From Longimicrobiales bacterium (GTDB lineage Bacteria > Gemmatimonadota > Gemmatimonadetes > Longimicrobiales > Gaopeijiaceae): a DNA stretch of 64,000 nt. The position numbers are program-made. Where the stretch lies: positions 3,232,001 through 3,296,000 of the forward strand of contig OZ250165.1 in assembly GCA_965238005.1 (NCBI GenBank). Direction: 5' to 3'. Every line of letters begins with the position of its first letter. Positions within the stretch are counted from its first letter, which is position 1. Shown piece by piece: positions 27,001-42,000 of the stretch.

Positions 27001-30000
27001 TCGTGCTCCCGCATCATCTCTTGCGCGTCGTAGGGTCCGTAGAAGGGCGTTCCCGACGATTCACTACCGGGACCCGCATGGTCCCTACCGACGATCAAGT
27101 GCGTGCACCCGTGGTTCTTTCGGATGATGGCGTGCAGCAGCGCCTCACGAGGCCCGCCCATGCGCATGGCCAGGTTCAGGAGCGACAGCTTGGCCGTGAA
27201 CCGGGGATAGGTATCCATGAGCGCCTGATAGCAGCGGACCCGGGTGAAGTGATCGACGTCCCCGGGCTTCGTCATGCCCACCACCGGGTGAACCAGTAGG
27301 TTGGCCTCGACCCCCTTGGCCGCCCTCAGGGTCAGCTCCTGATGGGCGCGGTGCATGGGGTTTCGGGTCTGAAACGCCACGATTCTCCGCCAACCCAGAC
27401 GCGCGAAGTCCCCCCGAAGCTGGCGGGGAGTGCTCCTGAGCTCGCGGAAGTCGTAGTGGACGGGCAACTGGAGGCCCTCGACCCCGCCGCCCACGTACAC
27501 CGGATTCGACCACTCCAGGAGGTGGGCGACCCCCGGGTGCTCTCGATGGCCGTTCCCGAAGACCCGCTCGGCCTCTTGTGCTCGATCCGGTCGCCAGATG
27601 TCCTCCACATGTAGCACCGCGAGCATGACGCCCTCGGGATCGCGCAGCGCGAGGTGCGATCCGGCCTCCAATCCCTCCGCAGCATCTTCAGTGATGTCCA
27701 GAGTGATGGGAATGGGCCACAGCGTCCCGTCCGCAAGCCGCATCTGCTCGCATACAGGTTCATAGTCCCGGGGCGTCATGAACCCGGCCAGAGGCGAGAA
27801 CGCACCGTTCAGGAGCAGCTCGAGATCGCTGATCTGACGCGGGGTGAGCTCCCACGAGGGCCAGTCCAACGATGTGGCCCTGAGCTCGTCTCCTCGCTCG
27901 CGATCGACGACGAGGTCCAAGAGCTCGCCGCCGTGGGGCGTGATCAGGTGATCCGTCATCAGGAAGTCAGGGTGTTGTCGGTCATCTCAGGGAGTCAGGG
28001 TAAGGAGCTCTTCGAGCCAGGCAGGGGTCTAGCGGCTCTCTCCGCCAGCCAAGCTACCACCCACACCCGCCCCGTCAACGACTACGCGCCAGCCCTATCG
28101 TCACTCTGAGCTCCAGCATGGCCCCGTTCTCTGCCACTCCGGCCTCGAAGTCGAGCTCCGATATGCGCTCATAACCTCCTGGTGGAGAGCAGCACCGCCG
28201 AGCTGGAAGCCGAGGCCGTCGAGAGCTGGCTTGTCCGTTTCGCGGATCAGACCTTCTCGCTCACCGACGCGGTGAGCTTCACGGTCATGACGATGCGAGG
28301 AATCGAGGAGGCGCTGACGCTGGACCACCACTTCACTGTGGCAGGCTTCGTGGGGCGCCCCGAAGGGAGCACTTAGTCCGACACGAGGCGGCGCGGATCG
28401 ACGAGCCCTCGGCCCCGTCACGCCGCCCTCCGGCCAGTCACGAGCCGCAGGGTCGCGCCGACGAGGATACCACCCCGCAACAGGGCGGGCTCCAGGAACC
28501 GAGGCGCGTGCCACGCATAAAGACGCCCGGCGTCAGGCTCGCCGCAGTACCAGCGTGGCGTTCGACCCCCCGAAGGCGAACGAGTTCGATAGGGCGACCT
28601 CGAGATCCGGGGCGTCGCGGCCCACACCAGCTACGCAGTCGAGATCGCACTCCGGATCTGGAACGGTCAGGTGGGCCGTCGGCGGAATTCGGCGCTCGTG
28701 GAGCGCCAGCGCGGTAATCGCGCACTCGAGCGCCCCGGAGGCCCCCACCAGATGCCCGTGCATGGACTTGGTCGAACTGATGGCGACGTTCTGAGCCGCC
28801 GCTCCGAACACTCGTTTGACCGCCTCGATCTCGACCGGGTCGCCCGTCGGCGTTCCCGTCGCGTGCGCATTGATATAACCAACATCATCGGCCGGGACCC
28901 CTGCGTCTTCCAGGGCATTGCGAATGGCCCGCTCCTGACCATCCACCGACGGCTCCGTCAGCTTGTGCGCGTCGCTCGAAGCGCCGAATCCGACGACCTC
29001 TGCCAGGGGCTCGGCCCCCCGTGCCGCGGCTCGCTCCTCGCTCTCGAGAATGAGCGTGGCCGCGCCCTCTCCCAGAACGAGGCCGGTACGCTCCAAGTCG
29101 AACGGACGGCTGGACATCCTCGCACCGTCCGCGTGCTCCTTGGCAACTACACCGACGGCCTGCCACGCCGCCACGGACCCGTCGTTGAGCATGGCCTCCG
29201 CCCCCCCGGCGATGACCACATGGGAGTAGCCGTCTCGGATCGACCGGAAGGCTTCGCCGATCGCGACGGACGAAGAGGCGCAGGCGATCGAGTACGTATG
29301 CGCCGGCCCGCGAATGCCGAACTGAATGCAAACCTGAGAGGCCGGACCACTGGCCATGATCAGAGGGACGGTCGTCGGCCTACTACGCCTGCTGTGACGC
29401 TCGAAGTAGATACTGTAGGATTGTTGGAGGATCTCGGCTCCTCCGAGCCCACACCCCATGTATACTCCCGCTTCCTCGGGCCCACCTCCTTCCACAAGGA
29501 GATCGGAGTCCTCCAGGGCGTTTCGGGTCGATACTACGGCCATCTGCGCCGCGCGCGCCATGAAGAGCCGGTCGACCTTGTCGATTCGGTCGCCCGGTTC
29601 GAAGTCGATGGAGGCGAGCAGCACGTCCGCGCCCAGCTCGGGAGTGCCCGATCGGACCAAACGAATAGCGGACTCTCCGCGACAGAGGCTGTCGAAGATA
29701 TCCGCTGGGTTCTCCCCGTGCGGGGACACGAATCCGAGCCCCGTTACGAAGACGCGGCGGCCACGCACGGGAGGCTCAGGCCCCCTTGGCTTGGACGAGC
29801 TCGTCCACCAGGGCGGCGGCTTCCGCGAGTGTCTGGAAGGTGGCGCGCTCTTCGGGGACCTCGATGCCGAATTCGTCTTCAATGTCGAACAGCAGCTCGA
29901 CGACCGTGAGGGAGTCGAGCCCGAGCTCGGTCAGCGCCGCCTCCGGGCTGATCTTCTCTGCATCGACGTCGTACTTCTCGCTCAATACTTCAGCCAAGAA

Positions 30001-39000: not shown

Positions 39001-42000
39001 ATCTGTACAGGCTGGCGCCGAAGTTGTCCAGTGCCAGGTTCGTTGCCTCGTTGTCCTCGAGGATCCACGAGAACTCAACGTCCTCCACCCCGAAGGTCGA
39101 GGCCCGGCGAACGGCCTCGTACAGGATCAAGGGAAGGACGCCCCCCCGTTGATACCGGGGGAGGATCCCGGTCAACATCGTCCGGACCCAAGGCGTGTGT
39201 CGGCGCGCCCTGAGAATCCTCAGCCAGTTCAGCGGTAGCAGGCGTCCGCTACGCGCCTTCAACATGGCCCGATTGTAGTCCGGAAGAAACAGCCCGAAGC
39301 CCACGAGCTCCCCGTTGGCCGTCGCCGCCACCATCCCGTCCTGCACCATGACGTCCTTCATCTCGTGCGCGATGAAGAGCCACTCGTCCACCTCGAGGGG
39401 CGTGAATCCCCAGTTCCCACTCCACGACTCGCAGTACACTTTCCAGCACTGGCGCATGGCCACTTCGAACTCCGACAGGTCCAGCGGTCCGAGCTCCAGG
39501 CCGAACTTTCCCATCACCCGACGGCTCAGCGTCTCGAACCGGCGGTGTAGATCGGGCACGGTCTCCCCGAGGTGGAGGTGCCACGCGAGGAGATCCTTGG
39601 CCTTCCGATACCCAGCTTCCTCCAGAATCTCCGGGTAGTACGGGGGATTCCACGAGGTCAAGAAGGTCTGGTTGTGCTCGAACCCACTCACCAGGATGCC
39701 GCCTTCGTAGTTGGTGGACGGGTTCCAGGGGCCCACCACAGAGTCGCACCCGTCTTCGCGGAGCCAGGCTTCGGTGACTTCCAGCAAGGCCCGCGCGGCG
39801 TCGGGCCGGTCGGCGCATTCGAAGAAGCCGAAGAAGCCCGGGCGATCGTCTCGGACCTCGTTGCTCCATCCGTTGCGGATGGCCGCCACGCGCCCCAGGG
39901 GGCGCCCTTCCTCCACCGCCAGGAAGAGCGCCCGCTCGGCGTTCCTGAAGAACGGGTTCTTCTTCGGGCTCAGGAGGGCCTTCACGCTCATGCGGAGCGG
40001 CGGGATCCACTGGGGATAAGCGTCGGCGTCGAGAATCTTCCAAGGCGCGTCCACGAAGCGCCGGAGACCGGAAGGCCCGGAGAGGCGGAGGACTTCCATC
40101 AGGTGGATGCGTTCAAGTGGAGGACTCTGGTCCGACGGGGGTTGAGCAGGCATGAAACGGCGGTTGCAAGGTGTCTGCAAAGCTCGATTATTGCCTCTGC
40201 GCGCGGTCCGCGTGGCGGCTGCGCCCAAGTGACCCGCAGGACGGCCCGGCCCCTTCTCGGTCGGGTGCAGGCGGGGACACTTCCCCGCGACTCAGGCCCG
40301 AGGAACGACTCTGACGCGCCACCTACGCTCCATGGCCGGCGGCTACCTGGCCCTTGCGCTCATCTCTGTCCTGCGCATCCCGATGACGGGGACGCTGCGT
40401 ATGGCCGGCGAGCCGGTCATGCTGGCGTGGGAGTTGGTGTGGCGGTTGTCGTTTGCGGCGGGCATGGGTTGGATCGCGTGGCATTGGTGGTCGGCTCTGC
40501 ACCGAGAGGGACGGCCGGAGGGGGGAGACCCGCGGTCTCTGATCGCCGGCACTCTCGGTGTGCATCTGGCAGCCGCGCTCGCCCTCCCGCTCACGTCCTC
40601 CGACCTCTATTCCAATCTCGCGTACGGACATCTGGGGTGGTTAGGCTTCGATGCGTATGCCGTGGGACCCGGCGCGCTCCCGGTGGGCGACCCGTTCCGG
40701 GCCCTGGTGCCGTCTCCGTGGCAGGGGGTGCCCAGCGCGTACGGCCCACTGTTGGACGGTTTCAACCGGTTGGTGACCCTCACCGGCTCCGTGCCCGTGT
40801 CGATGGCCGTGCACAAGCTGATATCCTTCTCCATCGTCGTCGTCTCGGTGATGGTGGCGGCTCGGATCACATCCCGCTTCCTCACCGGGGCTTCCCGCGA
40901 ACGGGCCTTCGTTCTCCTTGCGCTCAACCCCGTGTTCGTGTGGGAGATCAGCGGGCAGTCGCACAACGACGGCCTCATGGTGTTGGCGATCCTCCTCGGC
41001 GTGTACTTCTTGTTGCTGGATCGGACATGGGCGGCTCTCGGGGCTCTGGTGATAGGAGCGCTGGTGAAGGTCGCGACGATCCCCATCCTTGGGCTCTTGC
41101 TCTGCTTGGAGCTTCGTAGGAGGCCCTCTCACGGGATCAGAATGTTGGTCACGTTGATCGGCGCCGGAGCCGCGCTCTGGGGGCTGTGGCCCACGGTCCC
41201 GGCAACGCTGGCGGCTCTGGCGACCAACACCGAGGTGGATCCGTACCGGATAACGAATTCGATCGCTTGGCTGATCCACACCGCGGCCGGCTACGCCGGA
41301 TCCGAGATGCAGGCGGTGGCGTTCCGCACCTGGAGTGCAATCACTGGCCTCGTCCTGCTTCTCGTCGGGGTGCGCGCCGCGCTCCGTACGAGAACGCCGG
41401 AGGACCTGCTGAGAGAAGCGCTCGGCTTCCTGCTCGTTCTTCTTTTCCTAGCGCCTCAGTTCCAGCCCTGGTACATCGCCTGGATCCTCCCTCTCGCGAT
41501 GGTGTCGCGGGAGAGGGCCGTTCCCGGGTTCGTGGCTCTCGTATCGATCCTCTTCGTAGCGCAGTATCCGATCACGCACCGACTGGTGGGATCGGTCACC
41601 ATGGTGTTCGTCCTTTGGACCTACGTGCGGACACCGGGCGTCCCGGGCATACCACGGTGGGGCCAGCAGAAATCGGTGTGAGGCCACGCGGTCCATCATT
41701 GGATCCCCGCCTCCTTGGCACGTGCCGTTGGACCAGCCCCCTATCCCTTTCCCTATCCCTGAGGTGCCCGTTAGAGTGTGGGGATGCGGGTGCAGGGGCA
41801 CCCCCTTTCGGCGCAAAGCTAGCTTCGGGTCCGGTTTCCAACCAACCGAATGTGGAGTCCCCCAGCATGCCGTCCAAGCTCCCTCGCCTGGCTCATCTCG
41901 TCCTGGCGATCCTTGTACCCACGGGGCTCTCCGCACAACAAGATCCCGCCCGGACCGGCTCACGAACGCTGCCGACCGACTCCTGGACCTACGAGGCGAT

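What a model noticed while it worked through the whole genome (the two positions that open the first line are those of the whole stretch)
28533..40099. Polyketide synthase inside a ceramide gene cluster
One operon joins a fully reducing type I polyketide synthase (g03133, KS-AT-DH-ER-KR-ACP, 2117 aa) to a serine-palmitoyltransferase-like oxoamine synthase (g03132). It also holds homologues of the Caulobacter ceramide reductase CerR (g03131) and bacterial ceramide synthase bCerS (g03134), an ACP and a KS II. I read it as a complete route to very-long-chain ceramides whose long-chain base is built by the PKS, with glycosyl- and sulfate-activating genes nearby for head groups. It would make Gemmatimonadota sphingolipid producers and would link the two known bacterial routes (PKS/AOS SgaAB and Spt-CerR-bCerS) in one cluster.
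Evidence so far: The domain order is from pfam.tsv. Swiss-Prot best hits: g03134 is 34% identical to bCerS of C. vibrioides over 382 aa (E 4e-58); g03131 is 34% to CerR (E 7e-30); g03132 is 42% to 8-amino-7-oxononanoate synthases (E 8e-79); g03133 is 32% to PpsC over 2209 aa. All six genes are on the minus strand with gaps of 8-175 nt. Nearby lie the inositol-phosphoceramide-mannosyltransferase-like g03140 (35%, E 8e-26), the mannosyltransferase-like g03135 and the ATP sulfurylase/APS kinase g03127.
(Added by a program. Inside this text positions count along the whole contig: contig position 3,232,001 is position 1 of the stretch shown here. "Call 12" and the like, gene names such as g00115 and contig names such as C1 are that model's own, and its searches are not shown. 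The text may have been shortened before it was handed on; [...] marks where a part breaks off. The agent that wrote the report below was given it as the finding of a first reader that could run no searches.)

Follow-up and report, generated by a model that had tools for sequence, protein, structure and literature searches.

The report
Polyketide-fed ceramide gene cluster
A soil-type Gemmatimonadota bacterium carries a strain-specific gene island that joins a large fatty-chain-building enzyme to the known bacterial ceramide enzymes, so it probably makes unusual long-chain ceramide lipids by a hybrid of two known routes.

Summary
On the minus strand at 28533-40099 lie a bCerS-like acyltransferase, a 2117-aa type I PKS (KS-AT-DH-ER-KR-ACP), an alpha-oxoamine synthase (AOS), a CerR-like reductase, an ACP and a FabF-like KS.

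The bCerS- and CerR-like genes match the E. coli BL21 ceramide locus (28% and 30% identity). Their relatives sit beside an AOS in many phyla. The PKS and AOS are a separate conserved pair of the SgaAB kind. The AOS is 47-58% identical to PKS-linked AOSs but only 33-40% to bCerS-linked ones. No full PKS lay beside a bCerS homologue in 160 loci examined.

The region of about 28.0-50.9 kb has no counterpart in two same-genus genomes.

- The ER domain carries Glu where 11 of 11 homologues have Gly in the NADPH motif, so "fully reducing" is doubtful.
- The sulfate-activation gene is a conserved core gene, not part of the island.
- The IPC-mannosyltransferase-like gene has an in-frame TAA.
- bCerS homologues are already common in Gemmatimonadota genomes.

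Verdict: a new variant of known pathways, with no lipid data. The scan has noted plain ceramide triads on other DNA before, but none with a PKS.

The parts
38972..40099 (-). bCerS-like N-acyltransferase (375 aa, GNAT-related)
   Evidence: Weak Pfam Acetyltransf_1 hit. 28% identical end to end to E. coli BL21 YghO/ECD_02850, E 1e-46. Homologues sit beside an AOS and a CerR-like gene in many phyla.
32556..38909 (-). Monomodular type I PKS, 2117 aa, KS-AT-DH-ER-KR-ACP, no TE domain
   Evidence: Pfam domains. Motifs DTACSSS, HGTGT, GHSVG, VAYHS, HVVDGRPIFP, YAAAN and GVDSL are present. Closest homologues are 81%, 59% and 43-48% identical monomodular PKSs.
37749..38876 (-). KS domain of the PKS
   Evidence: Pfam ketoacyl-synt and Ketoacyl-synt_C. 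Coordinates converted from residues 65-440 of the 2170-aa ORF.
36366..37250 (-). AT domain
   Evidence: Pfam Acyl_transf_1. GHSVG and VAYHS motifs.
35379..36173 (-). DH domain
   Evidence: Pfam PKS_DH_N and PS-DH. HxxxGxxxxP motif.
33810..34703 (-). ER domain (MDR type), probably impaired
   Evidence: Pfam ADH_N, ADH_zinc_N and ADH_zinc_N_2. The NADPH motif is altered.
34317..34319 (-). GAG codon (Glu1531) where 11 of 11 homologues have Gly in the GGVG NADPH motif
   Evidence: The same letters stand in the X1 contig at depth 16.7. The X2 contig lacks 1 nt here and 2 nt at 34134.
33192..33734 (-). KR domain
   Evidence: Pfam KR. GHGGLG and YAAAN motifs.
32703..32894 (-). ACP domain of the PKS, followed by an acidic C-terminal tail (LSDSEVDTLLKELLDD)
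   Evidence: Pfam PP-binding. The tail motif LSDxEVDxLLxEL is conserved in 12 of the 14 closest PKS homologues printed.
31222..32547 (-). PLP-dependent alpha-oxoamine synthase (441 aa), SgaB/Spt-like, with a 48-aa N-terminal extension
   Evidence: Pfam Aminotran_1_2. Best PDB matches are serine palmitoyltransferases, E 1.6e-69. 47% identical to the AOS next to a PKS on a Pseudomonas plasmid and 35% to E. coli BL21 Spt. N-terminal helix conserved.
30190..31176 (-). CerR-like extended SDR (328 aa)
   Evidence: Pfam Epimerase. 30% identical to E. coli BL21 ECD_02852, E 1e-39. Homologue present in 48 of 80 and 36 of 80 bCerS-centred loci.
30103..30122 (-). Terminator-like hairpin between CerR and ACP (weak consensus match)
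   Evidence: 11 sites found against 4.4 +/- 2.3 in shuffles.
29776..30015 (-). Discrete ACP (79 aa), second copy beside the housekeeping AcpP
   Evidence: Pfam PP-binding. GLDSL motif. 40% identical to the housekeeping ACP at genome position 1844246. 65-67% identical to ACPs near bCerS-like genes in five marine-type loci.
28533..29768 (-). FabF-like elongating KS (411 aa), second copy
   Evidence: NF005589, 403.5 bits against a cut-off of 387. Cys-His-His motifs. 41% identical to the housekeeping FabF.
40332..41681 (+). MptB-like GT-C membrane glycosyltransferase, transcribed divergently
   Evidence: NF038066, 43.9 bits against a cut-off of 40. Lies inside the island.
44097..45932 (+). LIC_10190-family membrane protein
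   Evidence: NF047510, 178 bits against a cut-off of 100.
46554..47257 (+). Gly_transf_sug glycosyltransferase with an in-frame TAA at 46631-46633
   Evidence: The X1 and X4 contigs covering the site show no differences.
47152..48243 (+). Flippase-like LPG_synthase_TM membrane protein
   Evidence: Pfam PF03706, E 2.6e-31. 44% identical to the one in locus L166 next to bCerS-ACP-KS.
48243..49232 (+). TPR-containing protein, homologue of a 272-aa protein in L166
   Evidence: 38% identical over 221 aa.
27975..50940 (.). Species-specific region (about 23 kb) without a counterpart in two same-genus genomes
   Evidence: Core cluster GC is 67.9% against a genome mean of 64.8 +/- 1.8%.

Best explanation
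This is a hybrid sphingolipid cluster. A monomodular, probably iterative, type I PKS builds a long acyl chain on its own ACP. The gene starting 8 nt downstream encodes a PLP-dependent AOS of the SgaB (PKS-linked serine palmitoyltransferase) type. That enzyme most likely takes the chain off the PKS by decarboxylative condensation with L-serine, giving a 3-keto long-chain base. The PKS has no thioesterase, so the AOS would be its release step. The bCerS-like acyltransferase then adds the second acyl chain, and the CerR-like reductase reduces the 3-keto group to give a (dihydro)ceramide.

The extra ACP and FabF-like KS form a second, probably separately transcribed unit. I read them as the supply or elongation of the N-acyl chain. 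The flanking membrane glycosyltransferase and flippase-like genes are candidate head-group and export steps.

The PKS occupies the place that an acyl-ACP synthetase plus ACP holds in proteobacteria, and that a fused FAAL-ACP holds in related Gemmatimonadaceae.

Shown: gene content, homologies, synteny, island status and the ER lesion. Inferred: every substrate, the order of steps, chain length, and the hand-off from PKS to AOS.
For: Gene content and motifs:
- Domain order and intact KS, AT, DH, KR and ACP motifs.
- No Pfam thioesterase hit.
- The AOS starts 8 nt after the PKS stop.

The AOS:
- The best solved matches are serine palmitoyltransferases, E 1.6e-69.
- It is 35% identical to the experimentally studied E. 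coli BL21 Spt (passages of PMC9386255).
- It is 47% identical to an AOS directly behind a KS-AT-DH-ER-KR-ACP PKS on a Pseudomonas plasmid. That plasmid's gene order, with an SDR five genes on, matches the published sga locus tags (section 8 of PMC12134224).
- SgaB was shown to be serine-specific.

The PKS+AOS pair is a conserved unit:
- It recurs in G021, a genome of the same family (AOS 49%).
- The homologue lists for the two proteins share five contig sizes: 62883, 257505, 20163, 9952 and 34168.

bCerS-like and CerR-like genes:
- 28% and 30% identity to E. coli BL21 YghO and ECD_02852. PMC9386255 equates these with Caulobacter CC_1154 and CC_1164, which are required for dihydroceramide synthesis.
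- Of 80 genome loci centred on a bCerS homologue, 60 also hold an AOS, 48 a CerR-like gene and 46 both. Of 80 metagenome loci the figures are 44, 36 and 30.

Positional argument:
- The closest bCerS-linked AOSs (52-56%; L141, L128, L060) follow an AMP-binding/ACP region (one 1215-aa AMP-binding-ACP-AOS ORF in L141) and have CerR, a PPTase and bCerS around them. The acyl-loading module directly upstream of this AOS clade is therefore interchangeable.

Supporting parts elsewhere in the genome:
- An Sfp-type PPTase and housekeeping FabF/AcpP lie elsewhere.

Possible docking elements:
- An N-terminal basic helix (LSxxEKRxLLAxLLxKK) is conserved in PKS-linked AOSs.
- An acidic C-terminal PKS tail is conserved in 12 of the 14 closest PKS homologues printed.
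Against: - There are no lipid or expression data. No RNA run was listed.
- The AOS falls below every NCBIfam cut-off: bioF 343 against 426, SPT-CFB 330 against 640, SPT-beta 296 against 500, SPT-alpha 213 against 670.
- In my FastTree the AOS clade forms an unresolved three-way split with the main bCerS-linked clade and a core paralogue.
- The ER NADPH motif has Glu where all 11 aligned homologues have Gly. Two more of the six lineage-specific changes fall in the same 26 residues. A saturated chain therefore needs a trans-acting reductase, or the PKS is impaired.
- A closely related strain (run X2, protein P0244) has a 61-codon frameshifted stretch at the same place, though at a depth of only 4.2.
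- The PKS is only 33-35% identical to the Sga-like plasmid PKS and has a different C-terminal tail.
- A discrete ACP next to CerR and the AOS is also the canonical AcpR arrangement, so the AOS could be fed by that ACP instead.
- The ACP-KS pair occurs with bCerS-like genes, but without an AOS within 10 kb, in five marine-type loci.
Confidence: 0.55

Rival explanations
1. The canonical ceramide route runs through the discrete ACP. The FabF-like KS loads or elongates a fatty acyl chain on the dedicated ACP, which acts as an AcpR analogue. The AOS condenses that chain with serine. The PKS would then make something else: the very long N-acyl chain used by bCerS, or a separate lipid.
For: An ACP next to spt and the epimerase gene is the arrangement in E. 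coli BL21 and Caulobacter (PMC9386255 passages). The window ACP shows weak similarity to AcpR of E. coli (44% over 34 aa). The bCerS gene sits directly upstream of the PKS with a 62-nt gap. The ACP-KS pair travels with bCerS-like genes in loci L050, L133, L134, L165 and L166.
Against: The AOS belongs to the PKS-linked or carrier-fused clade (47-58% identity), not to the stand-alone bCerS-linked clade (33-40%). It lies 8 nt behind the PKS, and the PKS has no release domain of its own. PKS and AOS recur as a pair without any ACP-KS in G021 and on plasmids. A terminator-like hairpin separates ACP-KS from the other four genes.
Confidence: 0.15
2. The product is not a membrane ceramide. It would be another amino-lipid, for example a lipid anchor or precursor for a surface polysaccharide, possibly made with an amino acid other than serine.
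For: The cluster lies in a variable region rich in polysaccharide genes: Bac_transf, Polysacc_synt_2, GT2, GT-C, an LIC_10190-family protein and a flippase-like protein. Sga-like PKS+AOS pairs on Pseudomonas and Caballeronia plasmids sit inside capsule, export and LTA-synthase gene sets. The AOS is below all curated SPT cut-offs.
Against: bCerS-like and CerR-like genes are dedicated partners of Spt-like AOSs across phyla. The nearest characterised relative of the AOS type, SgaB, is serine-specific. A ceramide can itself be a glycolipid anchor, so this rival overlaps with the main reading.
Confidence: 0.15
3. The island is a recently acquired cluster that is decaying or inactive and makes no finished product in this strain.
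For: The island was not found in two same-genus genomes. The ER cofactor motif is damaged here and frameshifted in a near-identical strain. There is an in-frame TAA in the glycosyltransferase gene. A transposase and repeats lie nearby.
Against: The PKS differs at only 6 of 372 columns that are invariant in its 11 homologues. That is within the 2-22 range seen when each homologue is treated the same way. All other catalytic motifs and all six reading frames are intact. The stretch is held, at more than half of the sampled words, by five runs from three studies.
Confidence: 0.1

Closest known systems
SgaAB(C) of Pseudomonas fluorescens MYb115 (PMC12134224): iterative type I PKS + AOS with SPT activity + KDSR-like SDR, making C24-C28 sphinganines and phosphoglycerol sphingolipids
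   Same: A monomodular KS-AT-DH-ER-KR-ACP PKS sits directly upstream of an AOS, and there is no TE domain. The window AOS is 47% identical, from residue 8 on, to the AOS of a collinear Pseudomonas plasmid cluster used here as a proxy. The N-terminal AOS helix is shared.
   Different: The PKS is only 33-35% identical and has a different C-terminal tail. The reductase is an extended SDR of the CerR type, not a classical KDSR-like SDR. A bCerS-like N-acyltransferase is present, so a ceramide rather than a free sphinganine is expected. The ER motif is damaged. The phylum is absent from the paper's list of 6101 clusters by genus. The MYb115 sequences themselves were not compared.
Proteobacterial dihydroceramide genes: Spt, AcpR, AasR, CerR (epi), bCerS (aca/YghO) of Caulobacter crescentus and E. 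coli BL21(DE3) (PMC9386255; Stankeviciute 2022, recalled and as cited there)
   Same: Homologues of Spt (35%), the CerR-type epimerase (30%) and YghO/bCerS (28%, full length) are clustered with a dedicated ACP.
   Different: No AasR-type acyl-ACP synthetase is in the cluster. The best genome matches to a FAAL-ACP query are 27-29% identical and lie elsewhere. A 2117-aa PKS stands in its place. The AOS is of another clade. There is an extra FabF-like KS.
Uncharacterised FAAL-ACP-AOS fusion clusters of Gemmatimonadaceae (loci L141, L128, L060)
   Same: These hold the closest bCerS-linked AOSs (52-56%; clade support 100). CerR-like and bCerS-like genes lie in the same locus.
   Different: There the acyl chain is presumably loaded from a free fatty acid by the AMP-binding/ACP region upstream of the AOS (one ORF with it in L141), and a PPTase is encoded in the locus. 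Here an entire reducing PKS supplies the chain, and the only PPTase found lies about 360 kb away.
Fungal PKS + AOS sphingolipid-analogue pathways (fumonisin Fum1/Fum8, sphingofungin, myriocin; named in PMC12134224 section 8 and in the listing)
   Same: The logic is the same: a reducing PKS chain is released by a PLP-dependent AOS with an amino acid.
   Different: Those are eukaryotic secondary-metabolite toxins, with alanine or other substrates and further tailoring. They have no bCerS/CerR partners. Similarity was not measured here.

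Membership tests
Bacterial ceramide pathway (Spt-bCerS-CerR) | PLP-dependent alpha-oxoamine synthase with a Schiff-base lysine | tested here: met
   Pfam Aminotran_1_2, E 1e-48. DEAH and SK motifs (H259, K291) are invariant in alignments A2 and A3. The residue roles are recalled, not tested.
Bacterial ceramide pathway (Spt-bCerS-CerR) | The AOS is a serine palmitoyltransferase by curated model or clade | tested here: inconclusive
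   It is below all three NCBIfam SPT cut-offs (330 against 640, 296 against 500, 213 against 670), and bioF scores slightly higher (343 against 426). The best PDB matches are SPTs. The tree gives an unresolved three-way split.
Bacterial ceramide pathway (Spt-bCerS-CerR) | bCerS (CC_1154/YghO family) homologue, full length | tested here: met
   28% identity over 384 aligned columns to E. coli BL21 YghO, E 1e-46. YghO is equated with CC_1154 in the Fig. 9 legend of PMC9386255. The Caulobacter protein itself was not compared.
Bacterial ceramide pathway (Spt-bCerS-CerR) | CerR (CC_1164 family, extended SDR) homologue | tested here: met
   30% identity over 319 aa to ECD_02852, E 1e-39. Pfam Epimerase.
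Bacterial ceramide pathway (Spt-bCerS-CerR) | The three genes are clustered | tested here: met
   All three lie within 10 kb on one strand. The same triad occurs in 46 of 80 and 30 of 80 comparison loci.
Bacterial ceramide pathway (Spt-bCerS-CerR) | Dedicated ACP plus acyl-ACP synthetase (AcpR/AasR) feeding Spt (Rhodobacteria type) | tested here: not met
   An ACP is present, but no AMP-binding gene is in the island. The genome's best matches to a FAAL-ACP query are 27-29% identical and lie elsewhere.
Bacterial ceramide pathway (Spt-bCerS-CerR) | Ceramide is produced | not testable with these tools
   No lipid data.
SgaAB-type PKS/AOS sphingoid-base cluster | Monomodular reducing type I PKS immediately upstream of an AOS, with no TE | tested here: met
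   (8-nt gap).
SgaAB-type PKS/AOS sphingoid-base cluster | AOS orthologous to SgaB-type AOSs | tested here: met
   47% identity to the Pseudomonas plasmid AOS next to a PKS, 47% to the Caballeronia one and 49% to G021. 50-58% identity to many AOSs whose PKS partner shares the contig. MYb115 SgaB itself was not compared.
SgaAB-type PKS/AOS sphingoid-base cluster | PKS orthologous to SgaA | tested here: inconclusive
   Same domain order, but 33-35% identity to the plasmid proxy and a different C-terminal tail.
SgaAB-type PKS/AOS sphingoid-base cluster | All reducing domains competent (saturated chain) | tested here: not met
   ER motif HSATEGVGHAA against HSA[ST]G[GA][VL]GHAA in 11 of 11 homologues. 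The effect on activity is inferred from recalled mutagenesis of this motif, not measured.
SgaAB-type PKS/AOS sphingoid-base cluster | KDSR-like classical SDR (SgaC) in the cluster | tested here: not met
   No adh_short-type stand-alone SDR turned up among the island ORFs scanned. The reductase present is of the epimerase/CerR type.

The most novel reading that the evidence does not exclude
In this lineage the ER domain has been switched off while the rest of the PKS stays under constraint. Two different lesions hit the same NADPH-binding segment in two near-identical strains. The PKS would then hand the AOS a 2-enoyl or polyenoyl chain. Condensation with serine and reduction by CerR would give a 4-unsaturated (sphingosine-like) or polyunsaturated long-chain base. 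That would be a ceramide with the hallmark double bond of eukaryotic sphingosine, made without any desaturase.
Probability: 0.1. Interest if true: 0.8.

Novelty: new variant of a known kind. Interest (0 to 1): 0.55.

Why it matters
Two bacterial routes to sphingoid lipids are in print: Spt with bCerS and CerR, and the PKS/AOS pair SgaAB. This cluster is a natural hybrid of the two. It predicts that PKS-derived long-chain bases can be processed into true ceramides.

Comparison with relatives suggests that the acyl-loading step in front of the AOS is a swappable module. It can be a separate synthetase plus ACP, a fused FAAL-ACP, or a whole PKS.

The cluster also gives a compact four-to-six-gene set that could be expressed to test which carrier feeds the AOS and what chain the PKS makes. 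The damaged ER domain offers a built-in test of how chain saturation is set.

Gemmatimonadota lipids are little studied, and the strain-specific distribution suggests an accessory surface lipid rather than a core membrane component.

Tried and rejected
- Complex prediction. I modelled the AOS dimer with the PKS ACP plus tail. The score was 0.02 against a mark of 0.32, and the tool's verdict was 'no answer'. This is not evidence either way.
- SgaAB-like pairs in Pseudomonadota, PKS query. In a 401-genome sample, the PKS query hit 4 of 401 genomes at E<=1e-150. None of the four 20-kb regions fetched held an AOS.
- Same sample, AOS query. It hit 0 of 401 genomes at E<=1e-100. This is a dead end from sampling and says nothing about absence.
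- PKS ACP versus the ACP of the FAAL-ACP-AOS fusion. Only generic similarity was found (28% over 54 aa), so there is no sign that the PKS was grafted onto that ACP.
- The 51-nt direct repeat at 26250-26300 and 52965-53014. I considered it as an island att site. A copy of the same fragment lies at the orthologous right-flank position in congener G002, which lacks the island. I therefore read it as a relic, not a boundary repeat.
- Maximum-likelihood AOS tree with the default method. It did not finish in 300 s, so FastTree was used instead.
- RNA evidence. No RNA holder was listed.
- Stankeviciute et al. 2022 could not be read.
- The supplements of Ding et al. 2024 could not be read. I therefore cannot say whether Gemmatimonadota are among their 40 phyla.
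- Caulobacter is among the tool's control genomes, but no handle is given for it. E. coli BL21 was used as the reference locus instead.
- G018, which holds the nearest bCerS among GTDB relatives (55%). No AOS, CerR or PKS was found in the 16.8 kb upstream of it, and the contig ends about 600 nt downstream.

Full report
**What is there.** Window 28533-40099 holds six minus-strand genes.
- A FabF-like elongating KS, 28533-29768. It scores 403.5 bits on NF005589 against a cut-off of 387, and its Cys-His-His motifs are present.
- A 79-aa ACP, 29776-30015.
- An extended SDR of the epimerase type, 30190-31176.
- A PLP-dependent alpha-oxoamine synthase (AOS), 31222-32547.
- A 2117-aa type I PKS, 32556-38909. 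Its Pfam order is KS, AT, DH, ER, KR, ACP, with no thioesterase hit.
- A 375-aa GNAT-related protein, 38972-40099.

The gaps between genes are 62, 8, 45, 174 and 7 nt.

A terminator-like hairpin at 30103-30122 lies in the 174-nt gap, and another follows the KS gene. Eleven such sites were found against 4.4 +/- 2.3 in shuffles, so the evidence is weak. Still, 'one operon' may be two units: bCerS-PKS-AOS-CerR and ACP-KS.

**Link to the known ceramide genes.** I could not fetch the Caulobacter proteins. I used the annotated E. coli BL21(DE3) locus instead, which runs yghO, fatty acyl-AMP ligase, epimerase, ACP, spt. Passages of PMC9386255 characterise its Spt, AcpR and AasR. They equate yghO/ECD_02850 with Caulobacter CC_1154 and ECD_02852 with CC_1164, both needed for dihydroceramide.

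The window proteins compare with that locus as follows:

| Window protein | BL21 protein | Identity | E-value |
|---|---|---|---|
| GNAT-like | YghO | 28%, end to end | 1e-46 |
| SDR | ECD_02852 | 30% | 1e-39 |
| AOS | Spt | 35% | 9e-60 |
| ACP | AcpR | 44% over 34 aa (weak) | 1e-07 |

Gene neighbourhood gives independent support. These loci were chosen by their bCerS match, and many are short.

| Loci centred on a bCerS homologue | with an AOS | with a CerR-like gene | with both |
|---|---|---|---|
| 80 genome loci (Gemmatimonadota, Acidobacteriota, Ignavibacteriota, Bacteroidota, Planctomycetota, Nitrospirota and others) | 60 | 48 | 46 |
| 80 metagenome loci | 44 | 36 | 30 |

**The PKS and AOS are a different, SgaAB-like module.** None of the 160 loci has more than 357 residues of PKS match. 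Those matches are KS cross-hits on FabF-like genes.

The window AOS is only 33-40% identical to the stand-alone bCerS-linked AOSs. Its closer relatives fall into three groups:
- It is 91-65% identical to a few metagenome proteins.
- It is 50-58% identical to many proteins named from Terasakiella, Paraglaciecola, Nitrospira, Thiobacillus and Planctomycetota. Some of these carry a fused N-terminal ACP.
- It is 47% identical to AOSs on Pseudomonas and Caballeronia plasmids that lie directly behind, or one gene behind, a KS-AT-DH-ER-KR-ACP PKS.

The Pseudomonas plasmid layout is PKS, AOS, dioxygenase, capsule genes, a small GNAT, an LTA-synthase-family gene, and an SDR five genes on. This fits the published sga locus tags and the phosphoglycerol sphingolipid product (PMC12134224, section 8 read whole; passages).

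The closest PKS homologues are 81%, 59% and then 43-48% identical, and all are monomodular. Five of them share their longest-contig size with AOS homologues (62883, 257505, 20163, 9952, 34168). I take this as evidence that the two genes travel together.

A same-family genome, G021, has such a pair (PKS 2278 aa, AOS 49% identical). The 20-kb region fetched holds no CerR- or bCerS-like gene, and the whole genome gave no bCerS match.

The window PKS is only 33-35% identical to the plasmid PKS and has a different C-terminal tail.

**Three ways of feeding the AOS.** In a FastTree of 105 AOS sequences, the window AOS groups with support 100 with three Gemmatimonadaceae-type loci: L141, L128 and L060.
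- In L141 the AOS is the C-terminal domain of a 1215-aa AMP-binding-ACP-AOS protein. CerR lies upstream, and a PPTase and bCerS lie downstream.
- tblastn finds the same AMP-binding/ACP region upstream of the AOS, and the PPTase, in L128 and L060.
- Homology to the window AOS starts at residue 49 of the window protein.

This four-member clade, the 98-row main clade and a core paralogue of the same genome form an unresolved split. Clade membership therefore does not prove serine use.

The position directly upstream of this AOS type is thus filled in three different ways:
- by a separate synthetase plus ACP in proteobacteria;
- by a fused FAAL-ACP in the Gemmatimonadaceae loci;
- by an entire PKS here.

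This positional argument, the 8-nt gap, and the absence of a release domain are my reasons for having the AOS off-load the PKS.

Two further observations fit a docking pair:
- PKS-linked AOSs share an N-terminal basic helix, LSxxEKRxLLAxLLxKK.
- Twelve of the 14 closest PKS homologues printed share an acidic C-terminal LSDxEVDxLLxEL tail.

That they dock is inference only.

**The ER domain.** The NADPH motif reads HSATEGVGHAA (GAG at 34317-34319). All 11 aligned homologues have Gly at that position.

The window PKS differs from its homologues at 6 of 372 columns that are otherwise invariant. That is within the 2-22 range seen when each homologue is tested the same way. Three of the six changes, however, lie within 26 residues of this cofactor-binding segment.

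Contigs of run X1 match the window over 31137-48000 without a difference at depth 16.7. X1 may be the source sample.

A contig of run X2, from another study, lacks 1 nt at 34318 and 2 nt at 34134. This scrambles 61 codons of the same segment and then restores the frame. Its depth is only 4.2. The protein record P0244 shows the same scramble, but it may derive from the same data.

From memory, not checked here: changing the glycines of this motif was the classical way to inactivate ER domains in DEBS and animal FAS. LovB works with a dead ER and a trans-acting partner.

I therefore regard 'fully reducing' as doubtful. The chain is saturated by a trans enzyme, or it stays unsaturated, or the PKS is impaired.

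The AT motif VAYHS is conserved through the family. By a recalled rule it resembles the malonyl type rather than the methylmalonyl type.

**Island status.** The genome is a single 4.84-Mb contig.
- The two same-genus genomes (95% and 90% complete) gave no bCerS match at E<=1e-20. Across all relatives searched, 26 of 40 do have one. That tally includes one unpublished genome, G025.
- Those two genomes have no PKS match above 31% identity.
- Window 28001-48000 finds only five short matches in them, of 74-362 nt at 64-76% identity.
- By contrast, the sulfurylase/APS kinase gene is 93% and 92% identical in the two genomes.
- Homology resumes at about 50940 in G002 and about 53674 in G001.

The core cluster has 67.9% G+C against a genome mean of 64.8 +/- 1.8% for windows of the same size, which puts it in the top 2.7%.

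The same stretch is held, at more than half of the sampled words, by five runs from three studies.

**Head groups.** The sulfate-activation gene is a conserved core gene, so its proximity says little.

Inside the island lie several candidate genes:
- an MptB-like GT-C;
- an LIC_10190-family membrane protein;
- a flippase-like LPG_synthase_TM protein;
- a Gly_transf_sug glycosyltransferase, whose frame is broken by a TAA after codon 26.

Contigs of X1 and X4 that cover the TAA site show no difference from the window.

Five marine-type loci carry a bCerS-like gene together with an ACP and/or a FabF-like KS that match the window's closely (ACP 65-67%, KS 60-66% identity). L166, which I examined gene by gene, also encodes a GT4, an LPG_synthase_TM protein (44% identical to the window's), a homologue of the window's TPR protein (38%), and a PAP2 protein. 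None of the five has an AOS within 10 kb.

So the ACP-KS pair and the flippase-like gene belong with bCerS in some way that does not depend on the PKS. I assign ACP-KS to N-acyl chain supply, with low confidence.

A housekeeping FabF and AcpP lie elsewhere in the genome, as does an Sfp-type PPTase next to Pfa-like genes.

**Novelty.** Seven full-text searches found no paper describing a bacterial PKS with bCerS and CerR, or ceramide genes in Gemmatimonadota.

The SgaAB paper's genus table of 6101 clusters lists no Gemmatimonadota. A search of 12 of its 20 supplementary files found no such name either.

Ding et al. 2024 report Spt-like genes in 40 phyla (passages). Their supplement could not be read, so the phylum may already be listed there.

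Earlier notes of this scan describe plain triads in several phyla and a FAAL-ACP-AOS variant, but none with a PKS. One of them named E. coli BL21 YghO, which I then tested myself.

I file this as a new variant of a known kind. It is of moderate interest and rests entirely on sequence inference.

Noticed in passing
window 353-9082: Three tandem units of about 3.2 kb. The second and third copies are 95-99% alike, and the first is about 61% alike. This looks like recently duplicated paralogous genes.
   Followed up: no
window 19560-20516 and 8001-8689: A DDE transposase ORF. A 690-nt stretch also matches three places in congener G001 at 91-94%. The left half of the window is a patchwork relative to the congeners.
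   Followed up: partly
G000:C1:409163-410716 (locus L082): A second AOS paralogue with a 120-150-aa N-terminal extension. It scores slightly higher on SPT models than the cluster AOS (358 against 330 bits on SPT-CFB). It lies about 0.6 kb upstream of a YegS/BmrU-type lipid kinase gene. It is 66-95% conserved in 13 of the 24 other same-family genomes searched, including the two congeners without bCerS.
   Followed up: partly
window 26250-26300 and 52965-53014: A 51-nt direct repeat, 92% alike, with only two copies in the genome. One copy lies in the 3' end of the sulfurylase gene. A copy also stands at the orthologous right-flank site in G002.
   Followed up: partly
window 46554-47257: The Gly_transf_sug glycosyltransferase gene has an in-frame TAA at 46631-46633, after the conserved IIHQTWK start.
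   Followed up: partly
G000:C1:3611023-3619277 and 3628644-3629087: Pfa-like (PUFA-synthase-type) PKS genes, conserved in the congeners, with an Sfp-type PPTase nearby.
   Followed up: no
loci L050, L133, L134, L165, L166: A marine-type Gemmatimonadales gene set. Read in L166, it holds a bCerS-like gene, GT4, a SerA-like dehydrogenase, an ACP, a FabF-like KS, a 507-aa unknown protein, an LPG_synthase_TM protein and a PAP2 protein. No AOS lies within 10 kb.
   Followed up: partly
L224 (NZ_CP016850.1) and L225 (NC_021295.1): Sga-like PKS+AOS pairs on plasmids are embedded in capsule-biosynthesis, export and LTA-synthase gene sets. In Caballeronia an LpxC-like deacetylase gene sits between the PKS and the AOS.
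   Followed up: no
G032:C1:125455-178860: A same-order genome carries a run of at least eight large PKS reading frames.
   Followed up: no
window 45106: The run X2 contig lacks one base inside the LIC_10190-family gene, at depth 3.6. This is a possible frameshift in the sister strain or a low-depth error.
   Followed up: no
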